In this document: positions 20,028 through 35,924 of the stretch, piece after piece
Layout: the number at the start of each line of letters is the position of its first letter
Position numbering within the stretch: the stretch's first letter is position 1
Source: an uncultured Armatimonadetes bacterium
GTDB lineage: Bacteria; Armatimonadota; Hebobacteria; Hebobacterales; Hebobacteraceae
Assembly: GCA_963716175.1 (NCBI GenBank)
Contig: OY970296.1
Coordinates: 4,416,001-4,480,000, forward strand
Direction: 5' to 3'
DNA: 64,000 bases
Translations under genes and position numbers: made by a program
The notes under the pieces: generated by a model
What the model was told of the DNA's origin: nothing
Database searches by the model: none
The model's input: only the letters and a program-made list of their open reading frames with translations

Positions 20028-20052
20028 GGTATCTCCTTTCGCGATGCTTCAA

Positions 20053-20083
20053 GGGCGGGCCTACAGAGGGATGCCCGCCCTAC
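20053..20083 (-). repeat. GTAG-type REP-like palindrome
   Basis: Intergenic; minus strand reads GTAGGGCGGGC-ATCCCTCTGTAG-GCCCGCCC. Confidence 0.45.
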
Positions 20084-20101
20084 AGGCTTCCCGCTCACAG
20101 T

Positions 20102-20854
20102 TCACGAAAACTGCCGGTAGTAGGCCTCGACGTTCTCGAAATCCACCGTTTCATCCGGCGGCAGGCCGAGCCGTTTGTAGAGGCCGCTGCGGGCGCGCAT
20201 ATCGTCCAGCAGGACGGCGCGGGCGTGGACGGCCACTTCCTCGGCGACGTGCGCGGGCACCACCAGCACGCCGTCGTCGTCGCAGCCGACCATATCGCCC
20301 GGGTTCACCTGGACTCCGCCGCAGCCGATCTTGCACTGGACCTCCGCCACCTCGATGCGGCCCGGGATGATGGTGCGACCGCGGAGGCGCGCCGCGATCG
20401 GGGTCTTCTGAAGCGCGACCTCAGCCGTGTCTCGCACATAGCCGTCCGTGACAATACCAACCGCGCCGGCCGCCATCATGCCCATCGAGTTCGCTGACCC
20501 CCAGAAACCAACCTCGCCCGCGCCGCCGGTGTCAGTCACAATCACATGACCTGGGCGCACCACATCGCCCACTCCGATGTGGCCCATTTCCTTGAACCAG
20601 ATGCCGTGGGCATCTACGATCTCCTCCGTGGTCTTGAGAGGCCACATGGGCCGGTTTACGGGGACGCATCGGATGGTGAGCGCGACGCCCCAGAACTTCA
20701 TGCCCAGCCAGAGCGGCCTGATCTCAGGCCACATGCGGCCAATCTCGAAGTAGCCGATGCCGTCGAGCGCATCGCAGACATCCACAACGCGCAGGTGCTT
20801 GTAGAGCTTCGCCACCTCGAACGCATCCTTCGCCTTCTTCCGTTTGGAACCCAT
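20102..20854 (-). CDS. RraA / HMG-CHA aldolase family protein
   Basis: 'LRVVDVCDALD', 'WG', 'GIVTDGYVRDT' and 'VNPGDMVGCDDDGVLVVP'. Confidence 0.85.
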   Translation of the reverse strand: MGSKRKKAKDAFEVAKLYKHLRVVDVCDALDGIGYFEIGRMWPEIRPLWLGMKFWGVALTIRCVPVNRPMWPLKTTEEIVDAHGIWFKEMGHIGVGDVVRPGHVIVTDTGGAGEVGFWGSANSMGMMAAGAVGIVTDGYVRDTAEVALQKTPIAARLRGRTIIPGRIEVAEVQCKIGCGGVQVNPGDMVGCDDDGVLVVPAHVAEEVAVHARAVLLDDMRARSGLYKRLGLPPDETVDFENVEAYYRQFS

Positions 20855-20988
20855 GTCCAGACTCTCTCCTTGCTGTCTAATGGGGCCGCGCGATTCCGCA
20901 CGGCCCGGCCCGCGGGCGAAAGCACGCGGATACGACGGCCCTTGCCGGAAGCTCCCGCGAAGGACAAGCCGCGTAGGTCCTCTCAGCC

Positions 20989-22125: not shown

Positions 22126-22542
22126 CGCCGCGGCACTCCGGCCCGCAGGCCTTGATCTGCGCCAGCAAGCGGCTGGCGTCCTCCTTGATGCACGCGCTCG
22201 ATGCGGTCATGTGGTAGCGGGTGATGCGGATCAGGTAGCCGCGCACGGGCACCTTGTCAGAAGCAGGCATGGGGACTCCCTTCCGTCCGATGCGCCATTC
22301 ACCGCCTCGCCACAGATACCAGCAGTCGGCACCCGGCTCGCGGTGTCCCCAAAGACTTCCATTCCCCGGACAGGTTCCCTCTTGTCGCGGGGCTGCCAGC
22401 GGCAGGCAGCAGGGCTCCGGCTGAAGCCAGCGAATCACCAATATAGCTTCGGATGCTGCTGTGGCAGGAGCTTTCGGTCCTGCCCGACGCGGCCGCGCTG
22501 GAGTCCGGCGGCGCTGGCGTGGCGGCAGGTGCGGGTGAGCGG

Positions 22543-25500
22543 ATGCTTCGACTGGCGGTTACTGCAGTGCTCCTGATGATCGTCGCGCCCGGCGCATTGG
22601 CCGCTCCCGGTTGGCCCCATCCCCTCTACCTCGCCAATGGCGGCTACTGGAGCAAGCGCGTGCGAGTAGACGTGCATAGCGCCACGGCCGCCGATGTCGC
22701 GGGGGCGCCGGTGGCAGTGAAAGTGGGCAAGGGGCCGGGCCAGGCCGACCTCGTGGGCGCAGCGGCCCAAGCGGTGCGCGTGGTGGATACGAACGGGGTC
22801 GAGGTGCTCTTCGCCATCCGCACCCCGGCCGGCGAGCTGCTCGCCAAGGGGCCGATTCCCGAGCAAAGCGACCTTGTCATCCCGGCCGTCTGCTCGGCTG
22901 GCAAAGACGCGGCCTGCTACATCTACTTCGCCAACGCCGCGGCGTGGCCGGTTCCTGATTTCCTGGAAACGTCGTTGGCCATCCGCAACGGCGGGATGGA
23001 AGAGGGCTCCGGCGCTTCCCCGGCCGGCTGGCAGCACGACGAGGGTGACGCGGAACACCGGGCCTCGTGGGGCACAGAATGCGCTCACACCGGCACGCAC
23101 AGCCTCAAGCTGGCCGTGTCTCCTGGTGCGCAGCCGGCCTGGATATCCACGCGCCAGGCCGATATCTACATCCAGCCGGGAGCGCACTACCTCCTGCGCG
23201 GCTGGGTGAAGGCGGAGAATGTCAGCTCCGACGGCTGGGCTGGTTGGTACATCCACGTCGGCAACGCCTCGGACCCAATGCTGTTGAACGCGGACGCAAG
23301 CGGCGGCAGCGGCAGCTACGACTGGAAGCAGGTCAGCGCCGAGTTCACCGCGCCGCCGGGCGTAGACCGCGCCGATATCGGCACCGTGCTGTGGGGCGCC
23401 GGTGCGGCCTGGTTTGACGATGTCACGCTCGCATGCTCGTCGCCGCCCGCGCTGACGGCGACTGCAGGCCCGCCGGAGACACGCGTGCTGACAGAACTCG
23501 GCGCGACCTCGGACTGGTATGACGGCGAAGCCGACAGCGATGCCCATTGGGAGTGGCGCTTTCCGGTAAGAGTGATGAACCTCTCCGGGGCGACGCTGAC
23601 TGGACTCGCGCAGGTGGACATCAGCCCCGCGTGGGAGCGGTTCAGCCCGAGTATCAACGAGAACAGCATTCGCGTCACCCGCGGCTCGACCCTCATCCCC
23701 TGCTACCGCATCGGCAGCAACGTCTTGTTCGAAGCGCGCACGGAGCCGGACACCGCCCAGACCTACTACCTCTACCTGTCGAGGGATGGGCGTATCCCGG
23801 CCGGCCCTGGCTCCGACTACGCCGCGCTCATAGGCACCAGCAGCAACCTGGTCAAGAACCCCAGCTTCGAGCTGGGCCAGCCGCTGCCGGAGCACTGGTC
23901 CTCACAGGCCGCCCCTGGCGTTGTGCTCAGCCTGGATACGCCCGGCCTCTTCGGCGGCCGCGCCGCCAGGATAGATGTGCCGCCGACTGCTCGGGCCAAC
24001 TGGTCGGGCTGGCAACAAGACGTCCCCGTGCAGCCTGGCAAGACCTACCTCTACTCCGCCTGGGTGAAGTGCCAGGAGGTAAGCGGCGACGCGGTTGCGA
24101 TCTACGCTCACTACCTCAACCCCGCCGGCGAGCTGTGCCGGACGAGCCAGTACGCGGATGCCGGCCAGCCCATCAGCGGGACCCATGATTGGGCGCTGAT
24201 GTCCGGCGTGTTCCCGATGCCACCGGACTGCATCACCTTCCAGCTTCACCTCACGACACCCGCGCGCGGCACCGTGTGGCATGACGGCGTGGTGCTGACC
24301 GAGATTGTGCCTGCCACCTTGGGCCAGCTCGAGACACGTTCGGCCCGGCCCTCCGGGCTGAACGTCTGGTCGGTCAACCCGATTGTCAAAGTGTTCCAGG
24401 ACGACTCGCCTCCGACGCAGCCTCCGCGGGCCCGCATCTCTGCCGCCCGCAATGAGAAAGAGCCTCTGCAGCTTGCTGTCCGCAGCTCCGAACCCCTGAA
24501 TGGTGTCACGGTCGAGGTTGAACCTCCCACCAACGCCGCTGGTGCACGGCTTACGGATATCACCGTCAACATCGTCGGGTACGTCCCAGTTGACCATCCC
24601 AGCGGCTACTATCGGACCGCGGTTCCCTCTTGGCAGCGCAAGTATCCCATCGAAGCAGGCCAGTCCGACGGCTGGCCTGGGTGGTGGCCCGATCCGCTGC
24701 TGCCGGGAAACAGGTTCGACCTCGCGGCCAACACGACGCAGCCGGTGTGGATCACGATTGGCATTCCGAGGAAGGCGGCGGCGGGAGACTACGCTGGCAA
24801 GGTGAGGGTCGCGGCGGGAACGTCACTCCTCCGGGAGGTCCCGTTCACCGTACACGTGTGGGACTTCGCGCTCCCCGATGAGCGTCACCTGCCCGCGATC
24901 TACGACATCAGGTTGAACGACCTCTGGCAGACCGCGGGCAAAACGATGGATCAGGTGCGAAGCGACCTGGAGGCCGCGATGTCCGACCATCGCCTCTGCC
25001 CCGACGCCGTCTACCCCGATCCCGTCATCAGCTACAAGAACGGCGTCGTCTCCGCTGACTTCACCGCCTACGACCAGGCGGCCGAGCGCTACTTCGGCGA
25101 CCTCAAGCTGCCCCACACCTATGCCCCGTCGCGCTTCTACGGCTTCACCTGGGGCAATCCGCCCGGCGAGTTCAACGGGGAGAAGCCCTATCCGGGCGAC
25201 TACCCCTACACGTCGGCCGACCCGGGCCGGCTGCGGCCCGAGTACAAGGCCGCCTATCAGGCCTGCCTCCGCGCCTACTGGGATCACATGAAGGCGAGAG
25301 GCTGGGACAAGCAGGTAGTGCTCTACCTCGCGGACGAGCCCTTCGACTCAGACCCGCGGATCATCGCCCAGCTCAAGGCCCTGGCCGACATGGTGCATGA
25401 GGTGGACCCGGCGATCCCGACCTATGTCAGCACCTGGCGCTACATCCCGGCCTGGGACGGCTGCATAGACATCTGGGGGATCGGTCACTATGGAACGGTG

Positions 25501-26079
25501 CTGCCGGAGGAGATGGCGCAGATGAGGGCCAAGGGCGCGCGCCTGCGCTTCACCACCGATGGGCAGATGTGCATTGACACACCCTACCTCGCGGTCGAGC
25601 GGCTGCTGCCTCATTACTGCTTCAAGTACGGGGTCGAGGGCTACGAGTTCTGGGGCATCTCCTGGCTAGTCACCTACAATCCCTACCAGTTCGGCTGGTT
25701 CCCCTATATCCATCAGAGCGACCAGCCTGGAGTTTCCTACTACGTCCGCTATCCCAATGGCGATGGCTTCCTCGCCTACCCCGGCGGCCTCATCGGCTGC
25801 GGCCAACCCGTCAGCTCCATCCGACTCGAGCAAGCGCGAGAGGGAGCGGAAGACTACGAGTACCTGTACCTCCTGAGGGACCTTGTGGCCGAGGCCAAAG
25901 CCGCGGGCGTGAGCACAGGGGCAGTGGAAGCAGCGCTGCGAGCCGCAGACGAGCTGGTCGCAATCCCCAACGCGGGCGGGAAGTACTCTACGAAAATCCT
26001 CCCCGACCCCAGCGCCATCTTAGCGGTGAGAGAGAAGGCGGCCGCGGCGATTGAGGGCCTTTCAGCCCCCGCGAAGTAG
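22543..26079 (+). CDS. Secreted multidomain glycoside hydrolase: two CBM4/9-like modules plus a GH123-like (DUF6067/DUF4091) catalytic region
   Basis: Signal peptide from ATG 22543. CBM repeats 'NGGME' and 'NPSFE'. Also 'AARNEKEPLQLAV', 'YLADEP', 'NGDGFLAYPG' and 'SSIRLEQAREGAEDYEY'. Confidence 0.8.
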   Translation: MLRLAVTAVLLMIVAPGALAAPGWPHPLYLANGGYWSKRVRVDVHSATAADVAGAPVAVKVGKGPGQADLVGAAAQAVRVVDTNGVEVLFAIRTPAGELLAKGPIPEQSDLVIPAVCSAGKDAACYIYFANAAAWPVPDFLETSLAIRNGGMEEGSGASPAGWQHDEGDAEHRASWGTECAHTGTHSLKLAVSPGAQPAWISTRQADIYIQPGAHYLLRGWVKAENVSSDGWAGWYIHVGNASDPMLLNADASGGSGSYDWKQVSAEFTAPPGVDRADIGTVLWGAGAAWFDDVTLACSSPPALTATAGPPETRVLTELGATSDWYDGEADSDAHWEWRFPVRVMNLSGATLTGLAQVDISPAWERFSPSINENSIRVTRGSTLIPCYRIGSNVLFEARTEPDTAQTYYLYLSRDGRIPAGPGSDYAALIGTSSNLVKNPSFELGQPLPEHWSSQAAPGVVLSLDTPGLFGGRAARIDVPPTARANWSGWQQDVPVQPGKTYLYSAWVKCQEVSGDAVAIYAHYLNPAGELCRTSQYADAGQPISGTHDWALMSGVFPMPPDCITFQLHLTTPARGTVWHDGVVLTEIVPATLGQLETRSARPSGLNVWSVNPIVKVFQDDSPPTQPPRARISAARNEKEPLQLAVRSSEPLNGVTVEVEPPTNAAGARLTDITVNIVGYVPVDHPSGYYRTAVPSWQRKYPIEAGQSDGWPGWWPDPLLPGNRFDLAANTTQPVWITIGIPRKAAAGDYAGKVRVAAGTSLLREVPFTVHVWDFALPDERHLPAIYDIRLNDLWQTAGKTMDQVRSDLEAAMSDHRLCPDAVYPDPVISYKNGVVSADFTAYDQAAERYFGDLKLPHTYAPSRFYGFTWGNPPGEFNGEKPYPGDYPYTSADPGRLRPEYKAAYQACLRAYWDHMKARGWDKQVVLYLADEPFDSDPRIIAQLKALADMVHEVDPAIPTYVSTWRYIPAWDGCIDIWGIGHYGTVLPEEMAQMRAKGARLRFTTDGQMCIDTPYLAVERLLPHYCFKYGVEGYEFWGISWLVTYNPYQFGWFPYIHQSDQPGVSYYVRYPNGDGFLAYPGGLIGCGQPVSSIRLEQAREGAEDYEYLYLLRDLVAEAKAAGVSTGAVEAALRAADELVAIPNAGGKYSTKILPDPSAILAVREKAAAAIEGLSAPAK

Positions 26080-26171
26080 CGGCGCCGAACTGGACCGGGA
26101 AGGGCGCCCATGTCGCCGTTGGCGTTCTGTGGTTAGCCACGGGCCAAAGGGTGCACCGGACGCGGCTGGGC

Positions 26172-26280
26172 AAAAAAGCGACGCCCCCGCGTAGGAGGGC
26201 GTCTGGGCGCTCCGTAGAGCGGAGCCTGCGGACGAAAGTCCTTGCTGCAATTAGCCGGACAATCGCCGCTCTGGTACAAT
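26172..26280 (-). ncRNA. tracrRNA (~109 nt)
   Basis: Minus strand starts ATTGTACCAGAGCGGCGATTGTCCGGCTAATTGCAGC. The first 20 nt are a perfect anti-repeat and the rest pairs the repeat with five G:U wobbles and one bulge. Then a nexus hairpin GGAC-TTTC-GTCC (26230-26241), hairpin GCTCCG/CGGAGC (26209-26225), and a terminator hairpin (26180-26203) with U6. Confidence 0.9.
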
Positions 26281-26287
26281 GTGCTTC

Positions 26288-26316
26288 AGGATAGCACATA
26301 GCACTGGCTCGGTCAA
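26288..26316 (-). promoter_or_regulatory. tracrRNA promoter
   Basis: Minus strand TTGACC-N17-TATCCT with extended -10 TG. Predicted start falls at the first anti-repeat base (~26280). Confidence 0.75.
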
Positions 26317-26326
26317 GGGGGAAGCG

Positions 26327-29300
26327 ATGGAAATCGTCGCTGACGGAGGGCAGGACCAGAGCGGATTCATACTCGGGCTCGATATCGGTGCAGCTTCGAT
26401 TGGCTGGGCGCTCGCGGGATTGCGCGATGGTCGGCCGCAAGGGTTGAGGGCCGCAGGCGTGCGCGCCTTTGCAGCCGGCGTCGAAGGTGACATCGAGCGC
26501 GGGTCGCGACCAATCACGCGCCGCCAAACGCCGAGAGGCGCGCCTCCGCCGCCGAATGCTGGCCCGCCGCCGTCATCGCTTGACGAAGCTCGCCGGGGTG
26601 CTCCAGCGCGGCGGGCTGCTCCCGCCCGGCGCGCTCGACACTCCCGAGGCCATAGATGCCTTCTTTGCCACCCTTGACCGCGACCTGTTCCCGCAGGACC
26701 TGCGAGCTCGCGACCCCCACGTCATGCACTACCGCCTGCGCGCTCGCGCGCTCGATGAGAAGCTCGCACCCTACCAGGTAGGCCGCGCTATCTATCATCT
26801 TGCGTAGCGCCGAGGCTTCCTCTCGAATCGCAGAGAGACAACGCGGCCCCGACGAGACGATGACGAGGGCGTGGTGAAGAGGGCCATCGGCGAACTCGAA
26901 CAGGAGATGCAGGAGGCCGATGCGCGCACACTCGGTGAACACCTTTCCCGGACCATCCCCGAGCAGAAGCGCCTGCGCAACCGTTACATCTCACGCGGCA
27001 TGATCGAACATGAGTTCACCGCCATCTGGCAGGCGCAGGCCCAGCATCACGCCGACCTGATGCGGGAGGACCTGCGCAAGCAGCTTCACTATGCCATCTT
27101 CCATCAGCGCCCCCTCAAGTCCCCGAAGCGCTTCATCGGCTTCTGCGACCTGGAGCGGGACCGCCGCCGCGCCCCACTCGCGGTGCTCGCCGCCCAGCGT
27201 CACCGCCTCCTCCAGAAGGTCAACGACCTCAGGTTCATCTCGAATCGCGGCGAGGTGCGCGACCTCAGCCGCGAGGAGCGGGCGAAGCTCGCCCTGGCCC
27301 TGGAAACCAAGGGCGAGATGACCTTCGCCGCGATTCGCAGGCTGTTGTCACTGAAGGACGGCCGCCTGAACTTCGAGACCGAAGGGGAGAAAACCCTCGT
27401 CGGCAATCGAACCGCCGCGAAGCTGGTGACCGTGTTCGGGGAGGCGCGCTGGGCCGAGCTCACGCCGGCGCAGCGCGACCAGGTCGTCGAGGACCTGCGC
27501 ACCATTCACAACCCCGACGCGCGCAGACGCCGAGCCGCCAATGCATGGGGACTTGATGAAGGTGCCGCTGCCCGCTTCGCCGACATCGTCCTGGAGGACG
27601 GCCATCACAGCCTATCGCGCCAGGCCCTCGCCCGAGTCCTGCCGCTCATGGAGCAGGGCGAGCCCTACGCCACCGCCCGCAAGGCCTGCTACCCCGACCG
27701 GGCGGAAGGGAACCCGCGCGATCTCCTGCCTCCGCTGGACGATGTCATGGAGGTCCGCAACCCCACCGTCCAGCGGGCGCTCACTGAGTTGCGCAAACTG
27801 GTGAACGCGGTCGTGCGTCAGTACGGCAAGCCATCCTACATCCGCATCGAGCTCGCCCGCGACCTCAAACGTAACCGCAAGCAGCGCCAGGACATTCACT
27901 TTCGGAACATCGCCAATCGCAAAGACCGCGAGACAGCCGCGGCGGCATTGCTGAAAGAGCGCGGGATCACCAGTCCCCGCCGTTCCGATGTAGAGAAGTG
28001 GCTGCTCGCGGAGGAGTGTCGCTGGATCTGCCCCTACAGCAGCCCCGAGCGCCACATCAGCGTGGAGGCGCTCTTCGGGGACGCGCCTCAGTTCCAGGTC
28101 GAGCACATCATCCCGTTCCCGCGGTGCCTCGATGACTCGTTCCTGAACAAGACCCTCTGCCATGTAGACGAGAACCGCCGCAAGGGCAACCGCACCCCCT
28201 GGGAGGCCTATCACGGCACCCCTCAGTGGGACGATATCATCGGCCGCGTCAAGGGCTTCTCCGGCGGCGGCCGCGGCAGAGCCGCCCGAAACCCCAAGCT
28301 GCGGCGTTTCCAGATGGAGGAGATAGACAGCCTCGACGACTTTGTCAGCCAGCAGCTCAACGACACCCGCTACGCCTCCCGCCTCGCCGTCACGTTCGTG
28401 GCCCAGCTCTACGGCGCGGGCGCCGACGGGGTTGATCCCCACGGCCGCCGCTGCGTCCAGGCCAGCCGTGGCCAGGTGACCGCACACTTGCGCGACCAAT
28501 GGCTTCTGAACTCCATCCTGGGCGGGGGTGAGAAGACGCGTGAGGATCACCGCCACCACGCCATTGATGCCGTGGTCGTCGCCCTTACCGATCCGGGGGC
28601 TATCAAGCACCTCAGCGACGCCGCGGCGCAGGCCGAATCCGCCCGCCGCCGGCGCTTCGCCCCCCTGTCCCCTCCGTGGCCCGCGTTCCTCGATGACGTG
28701 CGATCCGCCGTGGACACGATGGTGGTCTCCCACCGCGTCTCGCGCAAGGTGGCAGGGCCGATGCATGAAGAGACCATCTACGGTCGGCCGCGTCCTGACG
28801 ACGACGGCCGTCCCCAGGTGCATATCCGCAAACCCATCGAGGCCCTTTCGGCGAAGGACGTTTCGACCATCGTGGACCCCGCGGTGCGCCGCTGTGTGGA
28901 GGAGAAGCTGGCCGCGCTCGGTGAGAGCGACCCTGCCAAGGCCTTCAAGACTCCCGACACCCACCCGACCCTGCGTGCCCGAGATGGCCGCGACGTTCCT
29001 ATCCACAAAGTGCGCATCCGCAGGAGCGATGCGACGCAGCAGATTGGCCTCGACGCGCACCCTCGCCAGGTCAAGCTCGCCAACAACCACCACGTCGAGA
29101 TCATCGAGCCCACTGACGCCAGGGGCCGCGTCAAGTGGGAGGGCGTGGTCGTCAGCACCTATGAGGCCATGCAGCGCCTGCGCAACGGAGCCCCCGTCAT
29201 ACAGCGAGATCACGGCCCGGGCAAACGCTTCCTCTTCTCCCTGGCCCCCGGCGAAGTGGTGGAACTCGATGACGGGACGGAAGGCGACAGGCGCTTCTAC

Positions 29301-29510
29301 GTGGTCAGGAAAGTTACACGGCGAGGAGAGGGCAACCGGCAGCGTGTCACCATCGGGATTGTCGGGGTGAATGATGCTCGCATGAGCACCGCCCGTGGGG
29401 AACAAGAGGCGAGAGAGCTGAAGGAACCTTCAGCGGAAGTGCTTCACACGCTGCACTGCCGCAAGGTCCTCGTCACTCCGCTCGGGGAGGTGCGCGATGC
29501 CAGGGATTGA
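26327..29510 (+). pseudogene. cas9: Type II-C Cas9 (~1060 aa reconstructed), disrupted by a +1 G at 26501-26503 and an in-frame TAG at 26805-26807
   Basis: RuvC-I 'ILGLDIGAASIGWA', bridge helix 'RREARLRRRMLARRRHR', 'IYHLA*RRGFLSNR', RuvC-II 'IRIELARDL', HNH 'VEHIIPFPRCLDDSFLNKTLCHVDENRRKGNRTP' and RuvC-III 'HRHHAIDAVVVA'. Confidence 0.95.
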
Positions 29511-29869
29511 ATTGTACCAGAGCGGCGGTTCCCGACCAACTACAGTCCCCACGCCACGCAGCTTCTCCTCCCGGTCATTGTACCAGAGCGGCGATTCCCG
29601 ACCAACTACAGTGCCTCGAACCCGCCACACCGGAGTCGGTACATTGTACCAGAGCGGCGATTCCCGACCAACTACAGTTCAGAGCGGGTTGGAGCCCTGC
29701 CGAGAAGGATTGTACCAGAGCGGCGATTCCCGACCAACTACAGTCTGTTGATGGGCTACCCCTTCGTGCCGAAATTGTACCAGAGCGGCGGTTCCCGACC
29801 AACTACAGTCAGCTTCGCCACTGCAGTAATCAGTGCCAATTGTACCAGAGCGGCGGTTCCCGACCAACT
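29511..29869 (-). CRISPR. Type II-C CRISPR array: 5 full 36-bp repeats, a truncated 6th, and 5 spacers (30, 30, 30, 29, 29 bp)
   Basis: Plus-strand repeat ATTGTACCAGAGCGGCGRTTCCCGACCAACTACAGT at 29511, 29577, 29643, 29709, 29774 and 29839 (31 bp). On the minus strand it ends in TGGTACAAT, the II-C repeat-embedded extended -10, and is complementary to the tracrRNA. Confidence 0.97.
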
Positions 29870-30203
29870 GGGCTATCTGGTGCAGAACGGCAAGCCTGGT
29901 GCATTCGAGGGGGGAGGGAGACCACTCCCCCCTCGATTCTCCCCCCACCTGGAATCGTGCCAGAGCGGCGGTTCCCGACCAACTGGGCTATCTGGTGCAG
30001 AACGGCAAGCCTGGTGCATTCGAGGGGGGAGGGAGACCACTCCCCCCTCGATTCTCCCCCCACCTGGAATCGTGCCAGAGCGGCGATTCCCAACCAACTG
30101 GGCTATCTGGTGCAGAACGGCAAGCCTGGTGCATTCGAGGGGGGAGGGAGACCACTCCCCCCTCGATTCTCCCCCCACCTGGAATCGTGCCGGAGCGGCG
30201 ATT
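29839..30203. repeat. Three tandem 115-bp units (31-bp degenerate CRISPR repeat plus identical 84-bp segment) and a final 20-bp partial repeat
   Basis: Repeat parts start at 29839, 29954, 30069 and 30184. The 84-bp segments at 29870-29953, 29985-30068 and 30100-30183 are identical and contain a 12-bp stem TCGAGGGGGGAG-N8-CTCCCCCCTCGA. Confidence 0.95.
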
Positions 30204-30223
30204 GCGACCGGTGTGCTGGTCGC

Positions 30224-30252
30224 TTGACAGGCAGCGCGGCGCGGGCTAGGCT
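30224..30252 (+). promoter_or_regulatory. sigma70-type promoter for the GNAT leader
   Basis: TTGACA (30224-30229)-N17-TAGGCT (30247-30252). The -10 lies inside the palindrome GGGCTAG-G-CTAGCCC (30243-30257). Confidence 0.65.
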
Positions 30253-30401
30253 AGCCCAAGTCAAGCGAATGCTCGAAGGAAGGGAGGTGGGCACGATTCC
30301 AGAGATGGCATGCGTGGCGCAGGGGGAAGGTCGTCGCCCACGTCCCAGGCCTTGGGCTGGCTGATCTGCTCGCGGTAGTCGTGAGCGGAGAGTGCAGGTC
30401 G

Positions 30402-30432
30402 CGCCACGGGCCAGGAGGCCCGTGGCGTTTCT
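30402..30432 (+). terminator. Intrinsic terminator/attenuator-like hairpin in the GNAT 5' leader
   Basis: CGCCACGGGCC-AGGA-GGCCCGTGGCG followed by TTTCT; the U-tract is short. Confidence 0.5.
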
Positions 30433-30497
30433 GCGGCCCATCCCCCAGCCCCGCGGCTATGAACGGAAAGCCGCACCAATCACGGAGGATGAGCGCA

Positions 30498-31583
30498 ATG
30501 ATCTCTGAGTTGGAGGCGATCGGGTTTGAGCGGATACGCCCGCTTCTGCAGGAGGTACAGCACAACCTTACCATTGCGGCCGTGGTCGAAGGAACCTGCC
30601 CTGGCAGAATCTGGGTAGACAATGCCGCTGCTCCCCGCAGCGCGTTAGTATCAACGCCAGAGGGACACTTCCTGGTGGGACAGAGGCCCGAAGGGGAGCT
30701 CGCGGCCTCTCTCAAGGAGCTGATCACTGAGACCATCTACCCGCGCGGTAAAGCGCAGGGATGGTTGTGCTTTCTTCTGCATTACCCCGACCCGGACTGG
30801 AAGCCTGCCATCGCCGACCTCGTGGCGGCGAAGTGCCCAGTGTGGGACCATCAGCAGTACTTCGTTCTCAAGCATCTCAGGCGCGATTGGCGCGAGGGGT
30901 TCCCCGACGGGTTCTCCCTGCAGCGCGTGGACCGCGGTTTGCTGGAGAGAGCGGACCTCGCCAACGTGCAGCACCTGAGAGGCTGGGCGACCGGGAACTT
31001 CGGGTCACTCGCAGGATTTCTGGAACATGGCTTCGGTTTCTGCATCACCCGCGGGAGTGAGATCGTCAGCTGGTGCCTCTCGGACTGCGTCAGCGGGTGC
31101 TGCTGCGAGATCGGCATCCACACCGCGGAGGGCTATCGCAGGCGGGGCCTGGCGGCTCGCACCGTGGCCGCAGCCGTGGAGCATTGCCTCGCGAGTGGGC
31201 TGACACATGTTGGCTGGCACTGCTGGAGCAGCAATCTGGCCTCCGCGGCGACGGCGAGAGCAGTCGGGTTCGAGAAGGTGCTCGACCACTACGGCGTGCA
31301 GGTCTGGTTCAACGAGTTCGACGGCCTCCTGGTCAACGGGAACCTCTGTCTCCTGCAGAGCCGTTACGCCGATGCCGCCGAATGGTACGAGAAGGCCTTC
31401 GCGATGGCGGCTATGGGGGCCCCGGAGGTGGAGGCATCGAGCGTCATCGGCACCGCGGCGGACTGGGGCCGGTACTACCATAAGGCGGCGTGCTCGTGGG
31501 CTCTGGCCGGGAACCGGGAGGCAGCGCTGAGGTGTCTGGATAGAGCCATTGACACAGGCGGCGACCGCTGGCGGCTGTTCTAG
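30498..31583 (+). CDS. GNAT acetyltransferase (GNAT_acetyltran-like) with C-terminal TPR
   Basis: GGAGG RBS. 'EIGIHTAEGYRRRGLA' and 'NLASAATARAVGF', then TPR-like 'YADAAEWYEKA...YYHKAACSWALAGNREAALRCLDRAI'. Confidence 0.85.
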   Translation: MISELEAIGFERIRPLLQEVQHNLTIAAVVEGTCPGRIWVDNAAAPRSALVSTPEGHFLVGQRPEGELAASLKELITETIYPRGKAQGWLCFLLHYPDPDWKPAIADLVAAKCPVWDHQQYFVLKHLRRDWREGFPDGFSLQRVDRGLLERADLANVQHLRGWATGNFGSLAGFLEHGFGFCITRGSEIVSWCLSDCVSGCCCEIGIHTAEGYRRRGLAARTVAAAVEHCLASGLTHVGWHCWSSNLASAATARAVGFEKVLDHYGVQVWFNEFDGLLVNGNLCLLQSRYADAAEWYEKAFAMAAMGAPEVEASSVIGTAADWGRYYHKAACSWALAGNREAALRCLDRAIDTGGDRWRLF

Positions 31584-31605
31584 CCAGGCTGGGAGCCTGG
31601 GCTAC
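31581..31605 (-). repeat. GTAG-type REP-like palindrome
   Basis: Minus strand GTAGCCCAGGCTCCCAGCCTGG. Shares the 15-bp core CAGGCTCCCAGCCTG with 57334-57355. Confidence 0.55.
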
Positions 31606-31706
31606 GAAGCAGGAATGTCATCTTGCCGGAATCAAGAACAGGCGGCAGGGACTGGTGGCGACCGCAGGCTGGGACGCTGCCCTGTCCGGCAGTCTAGGAG
31701 AGTAAC

Positions 31707-33629
31707 ATGCGGACATCCATTGCGCTGACGCAACCGGGCGAGTTCGTGGTCGGCTGCAACTACTGGGCCTCGCACGCCGGAACCTTCATGTGGCGCGACT
31801 GGCGGCCGGAGGTGGTGGACCGCGATCTCCGGCTGCTGAGCGAAGCAGGGCTGCAGGTGCTGCGAGTGTTCCCCCTGTGGCCGGATTTCCAGCCCCTCAC
31901 GAACCTGCTCGGCGGCGGCGGTTCTTCGCGGGAGTTCCGCCACGGTGAAGCGCCACTGCCGGATGACGACTGCGGACAGGCTGGCCTGTCGGCGGAAATG
32001 CTGGACCGTTTCGCTCACTTCCTCGATCTGGCGGAGAAGCACAAGCTCAAGCTGATTGTTGGCCTGCTGACTGGCTGGATGAGCGGCCGCCTGCACCTGC
32101 CTCCGGCCTTCGAGCGGCTCAACCCGCTGACGGATGCTCGCGTGATCCGGTGGGAATTGCGGATGATCCGTCACTTCGTTCATCGCTTCAAGGACCACCC
32201 GGCAATTGCGGGATGGGACCTGGGCAATGAGTGCAATTGCATGGGCCAGGCGAACCGCGAGCAGGCCTTCATCTGGACCGCGACCATCGCCAACGCGATT
32301 CGCGTCGCTGACCCGTCCCGGCCGGTGGTCTCGGGGCTGCATGGTCTGACGCCGCAGGGAGAGTGGACCATGCAGGACCAGGGAGAGCTGACCGACCTGC
32401 TGACCACACATCCCTATCCAGTATTCACCCCGCACTGCGACCAAGACCCGGTCAACACCATCAGGACGATCATGCACAGCACGGCGGAGTCGCGGTTCTA
32501 TGCAGACATCGGCGGCAAGCCCTGCCTCTGCCAGGAGATCGGCACGCTGGGGCCGATGCTGGCGAGCGAGAGGATCGCGGCGGATTTCGCCCGGAGCTGC
32601 ATGTTCTCGCTGTGGGCAAACGACTGCCACGGGCTCGTGTGGTGGTGTGCGTTCGACCAGACGCACCTCACTCACACCCCTTACGACTGGAACCAGATGG
32701 AGCGCGAGCTGGGCCTGATACGAGTGGATGGATCGGCGAAGCCGGTGCTGGAGACGATGGGCGCGTTCCGCAGGATGCTGGCGTCCATGCCCTTCGATGC
32801 GCTGCCCCCGCATACGCGAGAGGCGGTGTGCATCCTGACCGAGGGTCAGGACCATTGGGGCGTGGCCTACAGCACCTACCTTCTCGCCAAGCAGGCGGGC
32901 TTCGATATCGAGTTTCAGTACGCGCAGCAGCCAATCCGCGAGGCGCGCTTGTACCTGATGCCGTGCCTGGCCGGGCACAGCATGGTCTCGGGCCGCCGCA
33001 TGCGGGAGCTGCTGGCGAAGGTCGAGGCCGGCGCCACGCTCTACCTCTCCCTCGATACGGGCCTGCCGGCGGAGTTCAGGGAGCTGGTCGGCCTGGAGGC
33101 CCAGACCCGTGAGCGGCGGCGCGAGCTCAATACCATCCGACTCGGCGGTCTCGAGGGGGTTCCGAGCATCCCGTGCGCCGGCGGCTACAAGGTGCGCTTC
33201 ACACCAGTGCGCGCACAGGTGCTGGGAGAAGAGGACGATGGCAGCCCAGCCTTCACGGTCGCAAGCTATGGTCGAGGGAAAGTGTTCTTCCTGAACACCC
33301 CGATGGAGCTGACCGTGAGCCGCACGCCGGGGATTCTGCACACACCCGAGGCGCCGCCGTGCTGGTCGGTCTACCGACACGTGGCGGCCGATGTCATACG
33401 GAACCGCGTGGTGAGCAAAGAGCACCCGATGGTGGGGGTCACAGAACACCCGCGCGATGCCGGCAGCCGCGTCATCGTCGCCATCAACTACTCACCTGAG
33501 AAGATCAACACCAGGCTCACGCTAGCGAGGGGTTGGGCCCTCGGGGATGTCCTCTACGGAGCGGTGGAACCGAACGGAGAGTGCGCGCTGCCGGCCAACG
33601 ACGCAGCGGTGTTCCTGGCGAAGGCCTAA
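31707..33629 (+). CDS. Clan GH-A glycoside hydrolase (GH5 mannanase-like / GH42-like)
   Basis: 'GCNYW', 'LRVFPLWPDFQP', acid/base motif 'WDLGNECN' and nucleophile 'QEIG'. Confidence 0.8.
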   Translation: MRTSIALTQPGEFVVGCNYWASHAGTFMWRDWRPEVVDRDLRLLSEAGLQVLRVFPLWPDFQPLTNLLGGGGSSREFRHGEAPLPDDDCGQAGLSAEMLDRFAHFLDLAEKHKLKLIVGLLTGWMSGRLHLPPAFERLNPLTDARVIRWELRMIRHFVHRFKDHPAIAGWDLGNECNCMGQANREQAFIWTATIANAIRVADPSRPVVSGLHGLTPQGEWTMQDQGELTDLLTTHPYPVFTPHCDQDPVNTIRTIMHSTAESRFYADIGGKPCLCQEIGTLGPMLASERIAADFARSCMFSLWANDCHGLVWWCAFDQTHLTHTPYDWNQMERELGLIRVDGSAKPVLETMGAFRRMLASMPFDALPPHTREAVCILTEGQDHWGVAYSTYLLAKQAGFDIEFQYAQQPIREARLYLMPCLAGHSMVSGRRMRELLAKVEAGATLYLSLDTGLPAEFRELVGLEAQTRERRRELNTIRLGGLEGVPSIPCAGGYKVRFTPVRAQVLGEEDDGSPAFTVASYGRGKVFFLNTPMELTVSRTPGILHTPEAPPCWSVYRHVAADVIRNRVVSKEHPMVGVTEHPRDAGSRVIVAINYSPEKINTRLTLARGWALGDVLYGAVEPNGECALPANDAAVFLAKA

Positions 33630-33670
33630 CAAGCGCCGAACCTGCGTAGGCGAGGCAGTGGGCTGGCCCG

Positions 33671-35788
33671 CTAGTTCCCAGAGCCCGAGTTGCCGCCCAA
33701 CTCGACCAGCACCGGCGAGCGAGCGTCGGGCCGGTTCGGCTGAAGGGAAAACCGCCGGGTGCGGTCGGGCGCCGCCAGAGTCAGGATCTTCTGCCCGCCT
33801 CGCTCCGCGATCTCCGGCTTGGCGCCAGGTGTGCTGGCGGCCGGATAGGCCTCCAACACGGTCACGAAGGTGAGCTGTTGGCGAGCATCGCGGTTTGACA
33901 CCTTGAGGGCTTCGATCTCCCCGGCCGGATTGCCGCTGGTGCCAATCAGCGGCTGACGCCAGCTCTCTGCAGCCACCTCCGCAGGCGCCAGCACCGTCAA
34001 GCGCAGCGCCCCGTTCTTCCCCTGCACAGTGAACCGGTTCCCCTCCTGCTGCTGGAAGGGGAAGTCGGCGTGGAAGTAGAGCTCGAAGGTGGAGGGTGAG
34101 ACCGCCTCCAGCTCATCCACGATGACCCAGCAATCCGGCCGCAGGTAGAAGACGTGCCGCAAGAACTTCTTCAGCCCGGCCTCGCGCTTGTAAGCCGCGG
34201 TCACGTCTCCGATGATGTAATCGTGATCCTGCGCGTGATCGGCACGAAGGATCCTGGCCCCACGCTTCTCGGCGCACAGCTGATCCCCCTGAAACCACGC
34301 TTCTCCCTCACCTTCCTGCCCCACGCCGTTGACCAGGGCCGTGTTCTGAAAGGCGGTGGTCTTGAAGGTGTAGCCGTCATCCACGATCAGCCAGTCGCCA
34401 TGGGCGAAGAGCTGAAAGGACCCAGCATCGGGATGCACGTGGCCTCCGCCCGGGTCATAGGAGTACTTGGCGAGCGCATGGTGGCCGATGTGCGGGCCGC
34501 ACTTGAACGCCATCAGCGCCTCATCGCCGTCCCACGATGAACGCATGAAGACAAGGTCGAGATCATCGAAATGCTTGAACGTGGGAAGGTCCGTCGGCGG
34601 CCGCGCGGGCACGGATGGATCCGCCCAGAGCAGGTTCAGGAATGCGGCGGCATCGTTGCAGAGGTCGGCCCCTCTGAGCGCGTTTGCCAGCCATTGCGCG
34701 TGCCCGTCCCGGTACTCCGCCGCCAGCTTTCGCAGCATGTAATCAGGCCCGTACCAGTCGTACCTGGGCCCATCGGCGAAAGTCATCAGGTCCGATTGCT
34801 GAGTCCACGATTGCTGTGGCAGCATGGAGTAAAGACGAAACGACGCGGTGTGTTGGAACCACGGGTTGTTCGCGAACAGGTCCCTGTCGAGCAGGCCACG
34901 CGAGAGCTCCATCAGTTTCAGCAAGTACTCCAGGCCATAGGACCAGTAGGGGACGCCCTCATGGGAGGCGCCGTCCGGCCCCAGAGAGCCCATCGTGATC
35001 TCGAGCTTCTCCAGCGGCAGCAGCACCCAGCCGTCCACTCCCTCGACTTCGCCGAATAGAGACAGGCCGGCCGCCGCCAGCCCGGTCATATCCACCCACT
35101 GATGGTTCTGCAGGTAAGCGTTGTGCCACCAGACCCGCTTGTTCAGCAAGGCCTGGTACATGCGCTCCCCGCGCTGCCGCAGGCATGCTCGCACCGCGGC
35201 GCGAGCGTCTGCGTCGAGATCTTGATATAGCCAGTCATACCCCAACGCCAGACCATAGAGCTGATGTCCGGCGGCGAGGTCCATGCCATCGATCTCACCC
35301 AGGCCCCAGGTCGGGTAGCCGGCGGAAGCAAGCATCCAGGCCTGCGCCGCAGCGAGGTACTTCCTCTCGCCAGTGAGCACATAGACCAGAGCCAGGTTGG
35401 GGATCGCGCTCCCCACCTCGCGCTGGTAGAGCTGCTCTTCGCCCGACCATCTATCATCCTTGCGGTAGGCGGGCGGGCCGTCGCTGGCGAGCCGGTCGGC
35501 TACACCCCGAAGTTGCTGAAAGAGGGAAGCGTAGGGCTCACGCTTGAGTTCAGCCTTCAGCTCCTGAACGCGCTCGTCTGTCAGATAGAGCCGCGGGTGC
35601 ACGCCCTGCAATCGGGCCAGCGGGGCCGGTATGGTCGTGAAGTGGTACTGCTCTCCGGCCGTGAAGCGTTCTGTCTCCATGACAGGCACCTCATCCAGAC
35701 GGGTATCGAGCTCGCTCGCACAGGAGGCGGATAGAAGAACGGCAAGCAGGACAACAGACAGGACGATCGCCCGGGGCCAGTCAATCAT
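33671..35788 (-). CDS. Heparinase II/III-like polysaccharide lyase (DUF4962 N-terminus), likely lipoprotein
   Basis: 'HPRLY', 'QNHQW', 'DGASHEGVPYWSYG', 'GHVHPDAGSF' and 'NTALVNG'. Signal peptide ends LSASC. Confidence 0.8.
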   Translation of the reverse strand: MIDWPRAIVLSVVLLAVLLSASCASELDTRLDEVPVMETERFTAGEQYHFTTIPAPLARLQGVHPRLYLTDERVQELKAELKREPYASLFQQLRGVADRLASDGPPAYRKDDRWSGEEQLYQREVGSAIPNLALVYVLTGERKYLAAAQAWMLASAGYPTWGLGEIDGMDLAAGHQLYGLALGYDWLYQDLDADARAAVRACLRQRGERMYQALLNKRVWWHNAYLQNHQWVDMTGLAAAGLSLFGEVEGVDGWVLLPLEKLEITMGSLGPDGASHEGVPYWSYGLEYLLKLMELSRGLLDRDLFANNPWFQHTASFRLYSMLPQQSWTQQSDLMTFADGPRYDWYGPDYMLRKLAAEYRDGHAQWLANALRGADLCNDAAAFLNLLWADPSVPARPPTDLPTFKHFDDLDLVFMRSSWDGDEALMAFKCGPHIGHHALAKYSYDPGGGHVHPDAGSFQLFAHGDWLIVDDGYTFKTTAFQNTALVNGVGQEGEGEAWFQGDQLCAEKRGARILRADHAQDHDYIIGDVTAAYKREAGLKKFLRHVFYLRPDCWVIVDELEAVSPSTFELYFHADFPFQQQEGNRFTVQGKNGALRLTVLAPAEVAAESWRQPLIGTSGNPAGEIEALKVSNRDARQQLTFVTVLEAYPAASTPGAKPEIAERGGQKILTLAAPDRTRRFSLQPNRPDARSPVLVELGGNSGSGN

Positions 35789-35924
35789 GGCGGCCTCTCC
35801 AACTACCGCGCCGCGAGGAGGGGACCCACGCAGTGCGCGCCGATAGAGCTGTTTTCGTGGTCGAGCTCGCGCGTTCCTTGCCGTGACCGGTCGGATATCC
35901 GCGCGGACCCGCCCCTGCGCTACC

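What the first reader, a model, noticed from the sequence alone, without database searches (positions are those of the whole stretch)
29839..30203. CRISPR array turns into a tandem of degenerate repeats with one constant, structured 84-bp pseudo-spacer (best candidate for an undescribed system)
Seen: after spacer 5 the period changes from 65-66 bp to 115 bp. The last 5 bp of the repeat (ACAGT) are replaced, and the same 84 bp recurs three times with a perfect 12-bp GC stem and a CTGGTGCA duplication. Repeats 7-9 change the embedded -10 from TACAAT to CACGAT but keep the central tracr-pairing core. They differ from one another (G/A at position 18, CCCG/CCCA, CAG/CGG) while the inserts are identical, which argues against a simple assembly duplication. 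Established: degenerate-repeat RNAs can redirect Cas9 (Francisella scaRNA), and repeat-mimic RNAs can inhibit other CRISPR types. Inference: (a) a non-canonical guide or tracrRNA-decoy RNA, (b) a REP/MITE-like element that entered a repeat and was amplified by repeat-repeat recombination, or (c) plus-strand 'anti-repeat plus hairpin' RNAs mimicking tracrRNA. The replaced bases would disrupt the lower repeat:anti-repeat stem, so normal guide function is doubtful.
Basis: partly seen in the sequence, partly recalled or inferred. Interest (0 to 1): 0.8.

Follow-up and report, generated by a model that had tools for sequence, protein, structure and literature searches.

The report
Dispersed hairpin repeat triplicated in decaying CRISPR array
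The constant 84-bp "pseudo-spacer" is a copy of a small hairpin repeat that is scattered around this bacterium's genome; it sits at the old, worn end of a CRISPR array whose cas9 gene looks broken and was copied three times, so it is most likely ordinary decay and not a new CRISPR mechanism.

Summary
Six 36-nt repeats with a 65-66 bp period are followed by three 115-bp units (29838-30203) whose 84-bp inserts are identical.

- The insert belongs to a dispersed structured repeat of about 72-80 nt. There are 22 other loci in the same 4.56-Mb genome.
- Ten of these 22 loci lie 0-90 nt after the stop codon of an unrelated, co-oriented gene.
- The hairpin shows covariation.
- The core also occurs in 5 of 14 sister genomes of the same family, none of which gave a Cas9 match.

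The real tracrRNA lies upstream of cas9 on the minus strand (about 26284 to 26172). It is conserved in a sister genus. crRNAs are therefore minus-strand, and the tandem sits at the oldest, cas-distal end of a type II-C array.

The locus is decaying. As assembled, cas9 has a frameshift and an in-frame TAG. No Cas1 gene was found in the genome.

Repeats 7 and 8 read as mosaics of the canonical and the degenerate terminal repeat. This fits unequal repeat-repeat recombination.

No self-target seed was found for the pseudo-guide. No RNA data and no spanning reads were available. Interest is low.

The parts
26172..26284 (-). tracrRNA gene. It has a 37-nt anti-repeat (26280 to 26244), an AAGG plus small nexus hairpin, a second hairpin, and an intrinsic terminator with a U6 tract.
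   Evidence: The anti-repeat was read. It pairs with the minus-strand repeat at -35.5 kcal/mol over the first 24 nt. The terminator at 26203-26180 was called. The homologous gene in sister genus G008 is 80% identical.
26288..26316 (-). Promoter-like site for the tracrRNA (TTGACC, 17 nt, TATCCT, with TG before the -10).
   Evidence: This is the only sigma-70-like site found in 26000-30600. The -35 region is conserved in G008.
26328..29510 (+). cas9, disrupted as assembled. The RuvC-I N-terminus is in one frame, there is a frameshift near 26500-26515, an in-frame TAG lies at 26805-26807, and the remaining 879 codons (26871-29510) are open.
   Evidence: Three-frame translation. Pfam hits RuvC_III, HNH_4 and Cas9_a. 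tblastn with the intact 1067-aa G008 ortholog shows two frames and a stop inside the conserved YHLA-RRGF stretch.
29511..29838 (-). Ordinary part of the type II-C array: repeats 1-5 (36 nt) and spacers 1-5 (29-30 nt). In crRNA sense each repeat ends in an extended -10 (TGGTACAAT).
   Evidence: The repeat is one mismatch from that of the G008 cas9-cas1-cas2 array.
29839..29869 (-). Repeat 6. Plus-strand positions 1-31 are canonical and the last 5 nt are replaced (GGGCT).
   Evidence: The duplex with the tracrRNA weakens from -31.0 to -26.9 kcal/mol.
29873..29953 (+). Copy 1 of the dispersed hairpin element, which makes up the bulk of the 84-bp 'pseudo-spacer'. The 12-bp stem is at 29905-29936.
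   Evidence: nhmmer E = 9e-20 against a profile of the family. The family has 22 other loci. Covariation.
29954..29984 (-). Repeat 7. It is a mosaic: the 5' ATCGTGCC matches the terminal repeat and the rest matches repeat 6 (G at position 18, CCCGACC).
29988..30068 (+). Copy 2 of the dispersed hairpin element, identical to copy 1.
30069..30099 (-). Repeat 8. It has ATCGTGCC, A at position 18, and CCCAACC.
   Evidence: CCCAACC is also seen in an ordinary repeat of a related strain (record 22).
30103..30183 (+). Copy 3 of the dispersed hairpin element, identical to copy 1.
   Evidence: A related strain's contig (about 93% alike) covers 30077-30229, which is this unit plus the terminal repeat and flank (record 23).
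30184..30219 (-). Repeat 9. This is the degenerate terminal ('extra', oldest) repeat, recognisable for about 27 nt.
   Evidence: It has the weakest duplex with the tracrRNA, -24.7 kcal/mol.

Best explanation
This is the worn, cas-distal end of an orphan, decaying type II-C CRISPR-Cas9 locus in an Armatimonadota genome. A copy of a lineage-specific dispersed hairpin repeat (REP-like or 3'-UTR-like, about 72-80 nt) lies between the last repeats of the array.

Shown:
- The 84-bp 'pseudo-spacer' is a member of that dispersed family.
- The real tracrRNA is encoded elsewhere in the locus, upstream of cas9 on the minus strand.
- crRNAs are therefore minus-strand, so the tandem is at the transcription-upstream, oldest end of the array.
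- cas9 carries two lesions as assembled, and cas1 is not found in the genome.

Inferred:
- The element came to lie between a repeat and the degenerate terminal repeat before this strain split from a related one.
- The unit 'element plus repeat' was then amplified to three copies. The mechanism was unequal recombination, slippage or gene conversion between the 31-nt repeat stretches that flank it, and this produced the mosaic repeats 7 and 8.
- The resulting RNAs, if made at all, have no dedicated CRISPR function. [quoted passage not shown]
For: 1. Dispersed family.
- blastn and three rounds of nhmmer against the whole genome gave 28 hits at E <= 1e-4. These are the 3 CRISPR copies, 22 other loci, and 3 reverse-strand self-hits of the palindrome.
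- The profile covers window 29873-29953, which is nearly the whole insert.

2. Structured, extragenic element.
- In 17 full-length copies the stem pairs are kept in 15-17 of 17 sequences.
- Pairs covary: one pair is G-C in 8 and A-U in 7 copies, the next is G-C in 12 and A-U in 3.
- 10 of the 22 loci lie 0-90 nt downstream of a co-oriented ORF. Pfam shows these ORFs to be ten unrelated genes: xylose-isomerase-like, MlaD, poly(A) polymerase/CCA, TldD, MgtC, MFS, DNA methylase, molybdopterin oxidoreductase, T2SS ATPase and Pol IV.

3. Independent of Cas9.
- The hairpin core occurs at 87-91% identity in 5 of 14 other genomes of the same family.
- All five gave no Cas9 match.

4. True tracrRNA.
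- It has an anti-repeat, nexus, hairpin and a terminator with U6 on the minus strand upstream of cas9, with a promoter-like site.
- It is 80% identical to the homologous RNA gene next to the intact cas9 of G008.

5. Decay.
- cas9 has a frameshift plus TAG.
- No Cas1 (PF01867) was found in the single-contig genome, while the same search hit 7 of 14 control genomes.
- The ortholog G008 has cas9-cas1-cas2-array.

6. The structure is not conserved.
- The G008 array with the same repeat ends differently and has no such element.
- The repeat occurs in no other species representative.

7. Mosaic repeats.
- Repeat 7 is the terminal-repeat 5' end joined to the repeat-6 remainder.
- G/A at position 18 is already polymorphic in repeats 1-6.
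- A related strain's contig shows CCCAACC in an ordinary repeat, the same repeat-element junction, and the canonical A where repeat 9 here has G in CGG.

8. Known background.
- In type II-C arrays the first transcribed repeat is the oldest and 'extra' repeat. It is mutated in 60% of systems, mostly in its first 15 nt (PMC12080349, sections 4, 15 and 20 read).
- Duplicated spacers make up 1-11% of spacers in the arrays studied in PMC4524480 (passages read).
Against: - The three inserts carry no difference in 3 x 84 nt, while the repeats carry two changes that are not obviously inherited (CCCA, CGG). If both arose after duplication, the chance that both fall in the 93 of 345 repeat bases is about 0.07. 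This is suggestive but not significant, and hints that both states are older or lie outside the duplicated part.
- The exact order of recombination events cannot be reconstructed.
- The 10 nt (GGGCTATCTG) between the truncated repeat and the start of the element have no identified origin.
- No transposase or RAYT lies next to any element copy: 5 Y1_Tnp-like ORFs exist, none adjacent. How the family spreads is therefore unknown.
- The two cas9 lesions could not be checked against reads, because the metagenome contigs do not cover 26394-26540 or 26805. They could be assembly errors, and the locus would then still be interference-competent.
- A hairpin just upstream of mutated 'extra' repeats is also what a published mechanism for silencing extraneous crRNAs looks like (PMC12080349). 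A modest function is therefore not excluded.
- A sister-genus array also carries structured insertions in its two terminal repeats, so a recurrent theme at this end is possible.
Confidence: 0.72

Rival explanations
1. Co-opted insulator or silencer of extraneous crRNA. Here the hairpin element and the mutated repeats at the transcription-upstream end are retained, and even multiplied, for a purpose. That purpose would be to stop outside transcription from entering the array, or to sequester the 'guide' of the extraneous crRNA so that it does not occupy Cas9.
For: [quoted passage not shown]
- All three have a look-alike here. Five 5' nt of the crRNA-sense repeat are replaced. The tracrRNA duplex is weakened from -35.5 to between -24.7 and -29.4 kcal/mol. 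A 12-bp helix lies about 50 nt upstream of each repeat.
- A related strain also has the element at this junction.
Against: - In crRNA sense the hairpin has no U-tract, and the terminator scan called no site in 29839-30203.
- Apart from the element's own stem, the fold is not better than shuffles (z = -1.3 to -1.5 on the minus strand).
- The neighbouring gene on that side (GNAT, 30381-31583, plus strand) points away from the array, so no obvious outside transcription needs blocking.
- One copy would do, and three are not explained.
- In the related strain's contig the right arm of the stem carries a 2-nt deletion and a substitution, which looks like neutral decay. This rests on a single contig at depth 2.
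- cas9 is disrupted here.
Confidence: 0.1
2. Non-canonical guide or regulatory cr-like RNA (scaRNA-like or tracr-L-like). Here minus-strand RNAs made of the constant insert plus a degenerate repeat pair with the tracrRNA and direct Cas9 to a partially matching chromosomal site in order to repress it.
For: - The units keep 26-31 nt of repeat that can still pair with the tracrRNA (-26.9 to -29.4 kcal/mol).
- Degenerate-repeat RNAs with regulatory roles are documented in other systems. This rests on the search listing and abstract of 10.1101/2023.03.03.530964 only; the Francisella and S. pyogenes cases are recalled.
Against: - No match of 14 nt or more to the 3' end of the pseudo-guide exists in the genome at either repeat boundary. 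The 12-13-nt matches (3 and 1) share no PAM, and none lies near cas9 or the tracrRNA.
- The 'guide' is simply the antisense of a dispersed element.
- The -10 of the driving repeats is weakened.
- cas9 is broken as assembled.
- The feature is not present at the orthologous locus.
Confidence: 0.03
3. Plus-strand tracrRNA mimic or anti-crRNA decoy. Here read-through from cas9 would yield three 'anti-repeat plus hairpin' RNAs that pair with crRNA repeats and titrate them, or compete with the tracrRNA.
For: - The plus strand of each unit carries 31 nt perfectly or nearly complementary to the crRNA repeat, followed by a strong hairpin.
- The element is in the same orientation as cas9, which is the orientation it has behind other genes.
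- The plus-strand fold has z = -2.6.
Against: - A canonical, conserved tracrRNA with its own promoter and terminator exists.
- The units have nothing like its nexus or its second hairpin.
- No plus-strand promoter-like site was found in 26000-30600.
- The hairpin belongs to a family found mainly behind unrelated genes.
- The structure is absent from G008.
Confidence: 0.04
4. Assembly artefact. Here the true locus has one unit and the tandem was inflated by the assembler.
For: No read or contig spanning the tandem could be obtained. Tandem repeats are error-prone in assemblies.
Against: - Repeats 6, 7, 8 and 9 are all different and each borders an insert, which a simple over-expansion of one unit would not give.
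- The whole tandem is only 365 bp, within reach of single reads or read pairs.
Confidence: 0.05

Closest known systems
Degenerate 'extra' (oldest, first-transcribed) repeat of type II-C CRISPR arrays and its upstream hairpins (Feussner et al. 2025, PMC12080349)
   Same: - It occupies the same position, cas-distal and upstream in crRNA sense.
- Mutations fall in the 5' part of the repeat and weaken tracrRNA pairing.
- A stable helix lies upstream.
- Promoters embedded in the repeats are present.
   Different: - Here there are four affected repeats, not one.
- The upstream helix belongs to a dispersed genomic repeat.
- The unit is triplicated.
- The cas genes are lost or broken.
REP / BIME-type extragenic palindromic repeats, and terminator-like 3'-UTR hairpin repeats
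   Same: - It is short (about 72-80 nt) and present in many dispersed copies.
- It has a G+C-rich imperfect palindrome with compensatory changes.
- It lies mostly right after stop codons or between convergent genes.
- It is lineage-restricted.
   Different: - No RAYT gene lies next to any copy.
- About 25 nt of conserved non-palindromic sequence precede the stem.
- No Rfam family matches.
- Mobility has not been shown.
Duplication of repeat-spacer units within CRISPR arrays (Kupczok et al. 2015, PMC4524480)
   Same: A unit bounded by repeats is present more than once in the same array. The likely cause is repeat-mediated recombination or slippage.
   Different: The duplicated 'spacer' is not invader-derived but a chromosomal repeat element, and the flanking repeats are hybrids of two diverged repeat versions.
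Francisella scaRNA, long-form tracrRNA, and CRISPR repeat-like regulatory RNAs
   Same: A degenerate repeat lies next to a constant non-spacer sequence inside a cas9 locus.
   Different: There is no target-matching seed, no conservation at the orthologous locus, and no intact Cas9 here. The constant part is a dispersed element. The features of these systems are recalled, or known here only from an abstract.

Membership tests
Type II-C CRISPR-Cas locus | Cas9 with RuvC and HNH domains | tested here: met
   Pfam hits RuvC_III, HNH_4 and Cas9_a and a RuvC-I motif in the N-terminal frame. However, the gene has a frameshift and a TAG as assembled.
Type II-C CRISPR-Cas locus | cas1 and cas2 only, with no csn2 or cas4, next to cas9 | tested here: not met
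   The array starts at the cas9 stop codon and no PF01867 match exists in the whole genome. The 56%-identical ortholog in G008 does have cas9-cas1-cas2-array. This locus is therefore a remnant of a II-C system, not a complete one.
Type II-C CRISPR-Cas locus | tracrRNA with an anti-repeat complementary to the repeat, plus a nexus and a terminator | tested here: met
   Minus strand, 26284 to 26172. It is conserved in G008.
Type II-C CRISPR-Cas locus | Promoter inside each repeat, array read towards the cas genes, oldest repeat first | tested here: inconclusive
   An extended -10 (TGGTACAAT) lies at the 3' end of every canonical repeat in crRNA sense. The orientation follows from the anti-repeat and the degenerate repeats are at the far end. 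No transcript data were available. The rule itself is taken from PMC12080349, section 4.
REP-like or MITE-like dispersed repeat | Many dispersed copies in one genome | tested here: met
   There are 22 loci outside the array at E <= 1e-4.
REP-like or MITE-like dispersed repeat | Conserved palindromic stem-loop | tested here: met
   A consensus hairpin with 15-17 of 17 sequences paired at each position, and two covarying pairs.
REP-like or MITE-like dispersed repeat | Extragenic location | tested here: met
   10 of 22 loci lie 0-90 nt after Pfam-verified co-oriented genes. For the other 12 the context was judged only from raw ORFs. At least 3 of them abut a gene end in the opposite orientation, and the rest are unclear.
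REP-like or MITE-like dispersed repeat | Associated RAYT (for REP), or terminal inverted repeats with target-site duplication (for MITE) | tested here: inconclusive
   Five Y1_Tnp-like ORFs exist, the nearest about 4.5 kb from a copy and none adjacent. Terminal inverted repeats and target duplications were not examined systematically.
Rho-independent terminator | G+C-rich stem followed by a U-tract | tested here: not met
   The stem is present, but the tail has too few T. The scan, which requires at least 5 T in 8, called no site in 29839-30203 on either strand.
cr-like regulatory RNA (scaRNA, tracr-L, repeat-like regulators) | A guide segment with a PAM-flanked partial match to a regulated promoter | tested here: not met
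   The longest matches are 12-13 nt, at chance level, with no common PAM and none near cas9.
cr-like regulatory RNA (scaRNA, tracr-L, repeat-like regulators) | Conservation with the cas9 locus in relatives | tested here: not met
   It is absent from the only other species representative with this repeat. The Planctomycetota locus, at 43% Cas9 identity, ends cleanly.
cr-like regulatory RNA (scaRNA, tracr-L, repeat-like regulators) | Expression and Cas9 binding | not testable with these tools
   No RNA run was listed.

The most novel reading that the evidence does not exclude
A chromosomal hairpin repeat was captured at the oldest end of a type II-C array and multiplied because it is useful there. 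In this reading the three 'hairpin plus crippled repeat' units form a buffer that blocks transcription entering the array. They would also soak up tracrRNA or Cas9-incompetent extraneous crRNAs, or on the plus strand give anti-crRNA decoys. This would be a previously undescribed, domesticated-repeat route to the control of extraneous crRNA reported for type II-C systems. The sister-genus array, with structured insertions inside its last two repeats, would be a second and independent solution to the same problem.
Probability: 0.07. Interest if true: 0.5.

Novelty: new member of a known kind. Interest (0 to 1): 0.2.

Why it matters
As it stands this is a clean negative. A feature that looked like a new class of Cas9-associated RNA is explained by three ordinary processes: a dispersed hairpin repeat, degeneration of the oldest repeats, and repeat-mediated duplication in a locus that has lost cas1/cas2 and probably cas9.

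It has practical value as a warning for CRISPR annotation. Constant 'spacers' and long periods at an array end should first be checked against genome-wide repeats.

By-products of modest value:
- A type II-C Cas9 and tracrRNA pair from Armatimonadota, with an intact 1067-aa ortholog in a sister genus.
- An apparently undescribed, lineage-restricted structured repeat family sitting just behind stop codons.
- A sister array whose two terminal repeats carry homologous internal insertions.

Tried and rejected
- **Rfam.** A scan of 20000-36000 at E <= 1 gave no match, so neither the element nor the tracrRNA is a curated family.
- **Spanning reads.** Only four metagenome runs hold parts of the stretch, all as low-depth contigs. 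None of the listed pieces spans the tandem, the cas9 frameshift or the TAG (4 further pieces were not shown). No RNA holder was listed, so expression is untested.
- **Junction search.** A 20-mer across the repeat-element junction was scanned in the metagenome and genome collections. This gave 1 and 3 hits. All lie in unrelated coding sequence encoding a (D/N)QLGYLV motif, and none extends into the element. I rejected them as chance.
- **Repeat search.** Among the species representatives only G008 carries the repeat, so no closer locus was available for comparison.
- **Other Cas9 relatives.** The Sumerlaeota contig (51% identity) shows no array in the DNA held. The Planctomycetota locus (43% identity) has a normal array end followed by an unrelated palindrome.
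- **G008 terminal-repeat insertions.** They are not dispersed in that genome. Folding them gave no consistent, significant structure (z from -2.1 to +0.9).
- **Self-targeting seed.** The search for a seed of the pseudo-guide found nothing above chance.
- **RAYT association.** None was found.
- **Earlier findings of this scan.** Nothing was recorded near this place or for this sequence.
- **Terminator idea.** I considered that the 84-mer is the terminator of cas9 or of the array. It is not called as a terminator but remains possible as a weak or atypical one.
- **Supplements.** The supplements of PMC12080349 were not opened. They may list systems with several degenerate repeats.
Full report
**1. 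The observation**

- 36-nt repeats start at 29511, 29577, 29643, 29709, 29774 and 29839, separated by 29-30-nt spacers.
- The period then jumps to 115 bp, with further repeat starts at 29954 and 30069. A degenerate ninth repeat starts at 30184.
- Tandem Repeats Finder gives period 115, 3.2 copies, 97% matches and no indels for 29838-30200.
- The three inserts are identical over 88 nt.
- In repeats 6-8 the last five plus-strand bases are replaced. In repeats 7-9 ATTGTA reads ATCGTG.
- The 12-bp G+C stem is the only structure that folding predicts robustly.

**2. The locus and its orientation**

The large ORF at 26871-29510 carries RuvC_III, HNH_4 and Cas9_a domains.
- Its true N-terminus, with the RuvC-I motif, starts at ATG 26328 in another frame. 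It is separated from the rest by a frameshift near 26500-26515.
- An in-frame TAG lies at 26805-26807.
- tblastn with the intact 1067-aa ortholog of a sister genus (G008, 55-56% identity) confirms two frames and a stop inside a conserved stretch. The C-terminus is complete.
- The flanks are a GH123-type glycosidase upstream and a GNAT acetyltransferase downstream.
- The array begins at the cas9 stop codon. No Cas1 gene is found anywhere in the single-contig 4.56-Mb genome, although the same search hit 7 of 14 control genomes.
- The repeat core occurs only at this locus (8 of 8 hits).

In G008 the order is cas9-cas1-cas2-array, and its repeat differs from ours at one position. Its contig title names it Armatimonadota, and it is in the same family as the window's genome. 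The window therefore holds a remnant of a type II-C system.

**3. The real tracrRNA**

It lies just upstream of cas9 on the minus strand.
- A 37-nt stretch (26280 to 26244) matches the plus-strand repeat. All but one of its differences are transitions that keep wobble pairing.
- It is followed by AAGG and a small hairpin, then a second hairpin, then a canonical terminator with six U (26203-26172).
- The only sigma-70-like site found in 26000-30600 lies just upstream on that strand.
- The same RNA gene, 80% identical and with a conserved -35, anti-repeat, nexus and terminator, sits at the end of a G008 contig. That contig's last bases match the sequence upstream of G008 cas9.

This settles the orientation. 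crRNAs are minus-strand. In crRNA sense each repeat ends with an extended -10. The tandem lies at the cas-distal, transcription-upstream end. According to PMC12080349 (sections 4, 15 and 20 read), this end holds the oldest and 'extra' repeat of type II-C arrays. That repeat is mutated in 60% of systems, mostly in its first 15 nt.

**4. What the 84-mer is**

- A whole-genome search with the insert found partial matches at 82-94% identity elsewhere in the genome.
- blastn and three rounds of nhmmer gave 28 hits at E <= 1e-4. These are the three CRISPR copies, 22 other loci, and three reverse-strand self-hits of the palindrome.
- The profile covers window 29873-29953, which is nearly all of the insert. 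Only about 10 nt (GGGCTATCTG) after the truncated repeat and about 3 nt before the next repeat are unaccounted for.
- In 17 full-length copies (one of them a CRISPR copy) the stem is kept in 15-17 of 17 sequences at each pair. Two pairs covary: G-C 8 with A-U 7, and G-C 12 with A-U 3.
- Ten of the 22 loci start 0-90 nt after the stop codon of a co-oriented ORF. Pfam shows these to be ten unrelated genes. For the remaining 12 the context rests on raw ORFs only. At least three abut a gene end in the opposite orientation, and several lie between convergent ORFs.
- The hairpin core also occurs, in several copies, in 5 of 14 other genomes of the family. All five gave no Cas9 match.
- It was not found in 192 genomes of other families of the phylum at E <= 1e-5.
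- No Rfam family matches. The terminator scan does not call it. None of five Y1-transposase-like ORFs is adjacent to a copy.

It is therefore a lineage-specific, structured, extragenic repeat. It is REP-like by analogy, and its function and mobility are unknown.

**5. How the tandem arose (inference)**

- Repeat 7 equals the 5' end of the terminal repeat (ATCGTGCC) joined to the remainder of repeat 6 (G at position 18, CCCGACC, then the junction with the element). This is the product expected from unequal crossing-over between repeat 6 and the terminal repeat across one element copy.
- Repeat 8 has the terminal-repeat 5' end through position 18-20, followed by the junction.
- G/A at position 18 is already polymorphic among repeats 1-6.
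- A contig of a related strain (about 93% alike) covers 30077-30229 without rearrangement. The junction 'repeat with CCCAACC, then element, then terminal repeat, then flank' therefore predates the strain split.
- A second contig of the same run shows CCCAACC in an ordinary repeat followed by a normal spacer. The related terminal repeat has the canonical A where ours has G in CGG.
- So most 'variation among repeats with identical inserts' is inherited from the parental repeats and did not accumulate after duplication. At most two changes remain, and the chance that both fall in the repeats is about 0.07.
- In the related contig the right arm of the stem carries a 2-nt deletion and a substitution. 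This would fit neutral decay, but it is a single contig at depth 2.
- Duplicated repeat-spacer units are a known feature of arrays (PMC4524480, passages read).

**6. Tests of the functional readings**

*Guide or regulator*
- The 3' end of the pseudo-guide has no match of 14 nt or more in the genome at either possible repeat boundary.
- The 12-13-nt matches share no PAM, and none lies near cas9.

*tracrRNA mimic or decoy*
- A canonical tracrRNA exists, and the units have no nexus-like part.
- No plus-strand promoter-like site was found.

*Pairing of the first 24 nt of each crRNA-sense repeat with the tracrRNA*

| Repeat | Duplex energy (kcal/mol) |
|---|---|
| 2-4 | -35.5 |
| 1 and 5 | -31.0 |
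| 6 and 7 | -26.9 |
| 8 | -29.4 |
| 9 | -24.7 |

This weakening is in line with that reported for extra repeats in PMC12080349.

*Conservation*
- The G008 array ends differently. Its last two repeats each carry a homologous 38-40-nt insertion in the middle of the repeat.
- That insertion is not dispersed in its genome and has no consistent predicted fold.
- No other species representative carries the repeat.

**7. What remains open**

- Copy number and the two cas9 lesions could not be checked with reads.
- There are no RNA data.
- A modest role as an insulator or silencer of extraneous crRNA, of the kind described in PMC12080349, is not excluded. I give it about 0.1.

**8. Verdict**

The feature combines known processes in a decaying type II-C remnant. 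I rate interest at 0.2.

Noticed in passing
window 26172-26316 (minus strand): A complete tracrRNA gene with a promoter-like site, a 37-nt anti-repeat, a nexus, a second hairpin and a U6 terminator lies divergent from cas9. It is conserved at 80% identity in the sister genus G008 (L035, minus strand, about 600-470).
   Followed up: yes
window 26328-29510: cas9 is disrupted as assembled by a frameshift near 26500-26515 and an in-frame TAG at 26805-26807. cas1 and cas2 are missing from the locus, and Cas1 is missing from the whole genome. Whether the two lesions are real or assembly errors could not be checked with reads.
   Followed up: partly
L034 207-282 and 311-400 (G008 contig C163, cas-distal end of its array): The last two repeats of the intact sister-genus II-C array each carry a homologous 38-40-nt insertion in the middle of the repeat (after ...GCGGCGAT). 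The insertions are not dispersed in that genome and their folds are not clearly significant. They may be another form of crippled terminal repeat.
   Followed up: partly
G000:C1, 22 loci (for example 1305163-1305233, 1696648-1696719, 3771725-3771795): A structured repeat family of about 72-80 nt, apparently undescribed (no Rfam match). It has a 12-14-bp G+C stem with covariation and often starts 1-4 nt after a stop codon. It is restricted to this Armatimonadota family among the genomes searched.
   Followed up: partly
L037 8600-8850 and 9540-9626 (Sumerlaeota contig, downstream of a 51%-identical cas9): Clusters of 26-nt hairpin repeats flank an ORF with an HxH-type transposase-like look, possibly a REP/RAYT pair. 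No CRISPR array is present in the DNA held for that locus.
   Followed up: no
window 30221-30264: A 7-bp inverted repeat (GCTTGAC ... GTCAAGC) encloses a plus-strand TTGACA, 17 nt, TAGGCT promoter-like sequence just beyond the terminal repeat. It points towards the GNAT gene. The consensus scan did not call it.
   Followed up: no
window 29870-29879: The 10 nt GGGCTATCTG between the truncated repeat and the start of the dispersed element match nothing informative. They may be a remnant of an old spacer or of the insertion event.
   Followed up: partly
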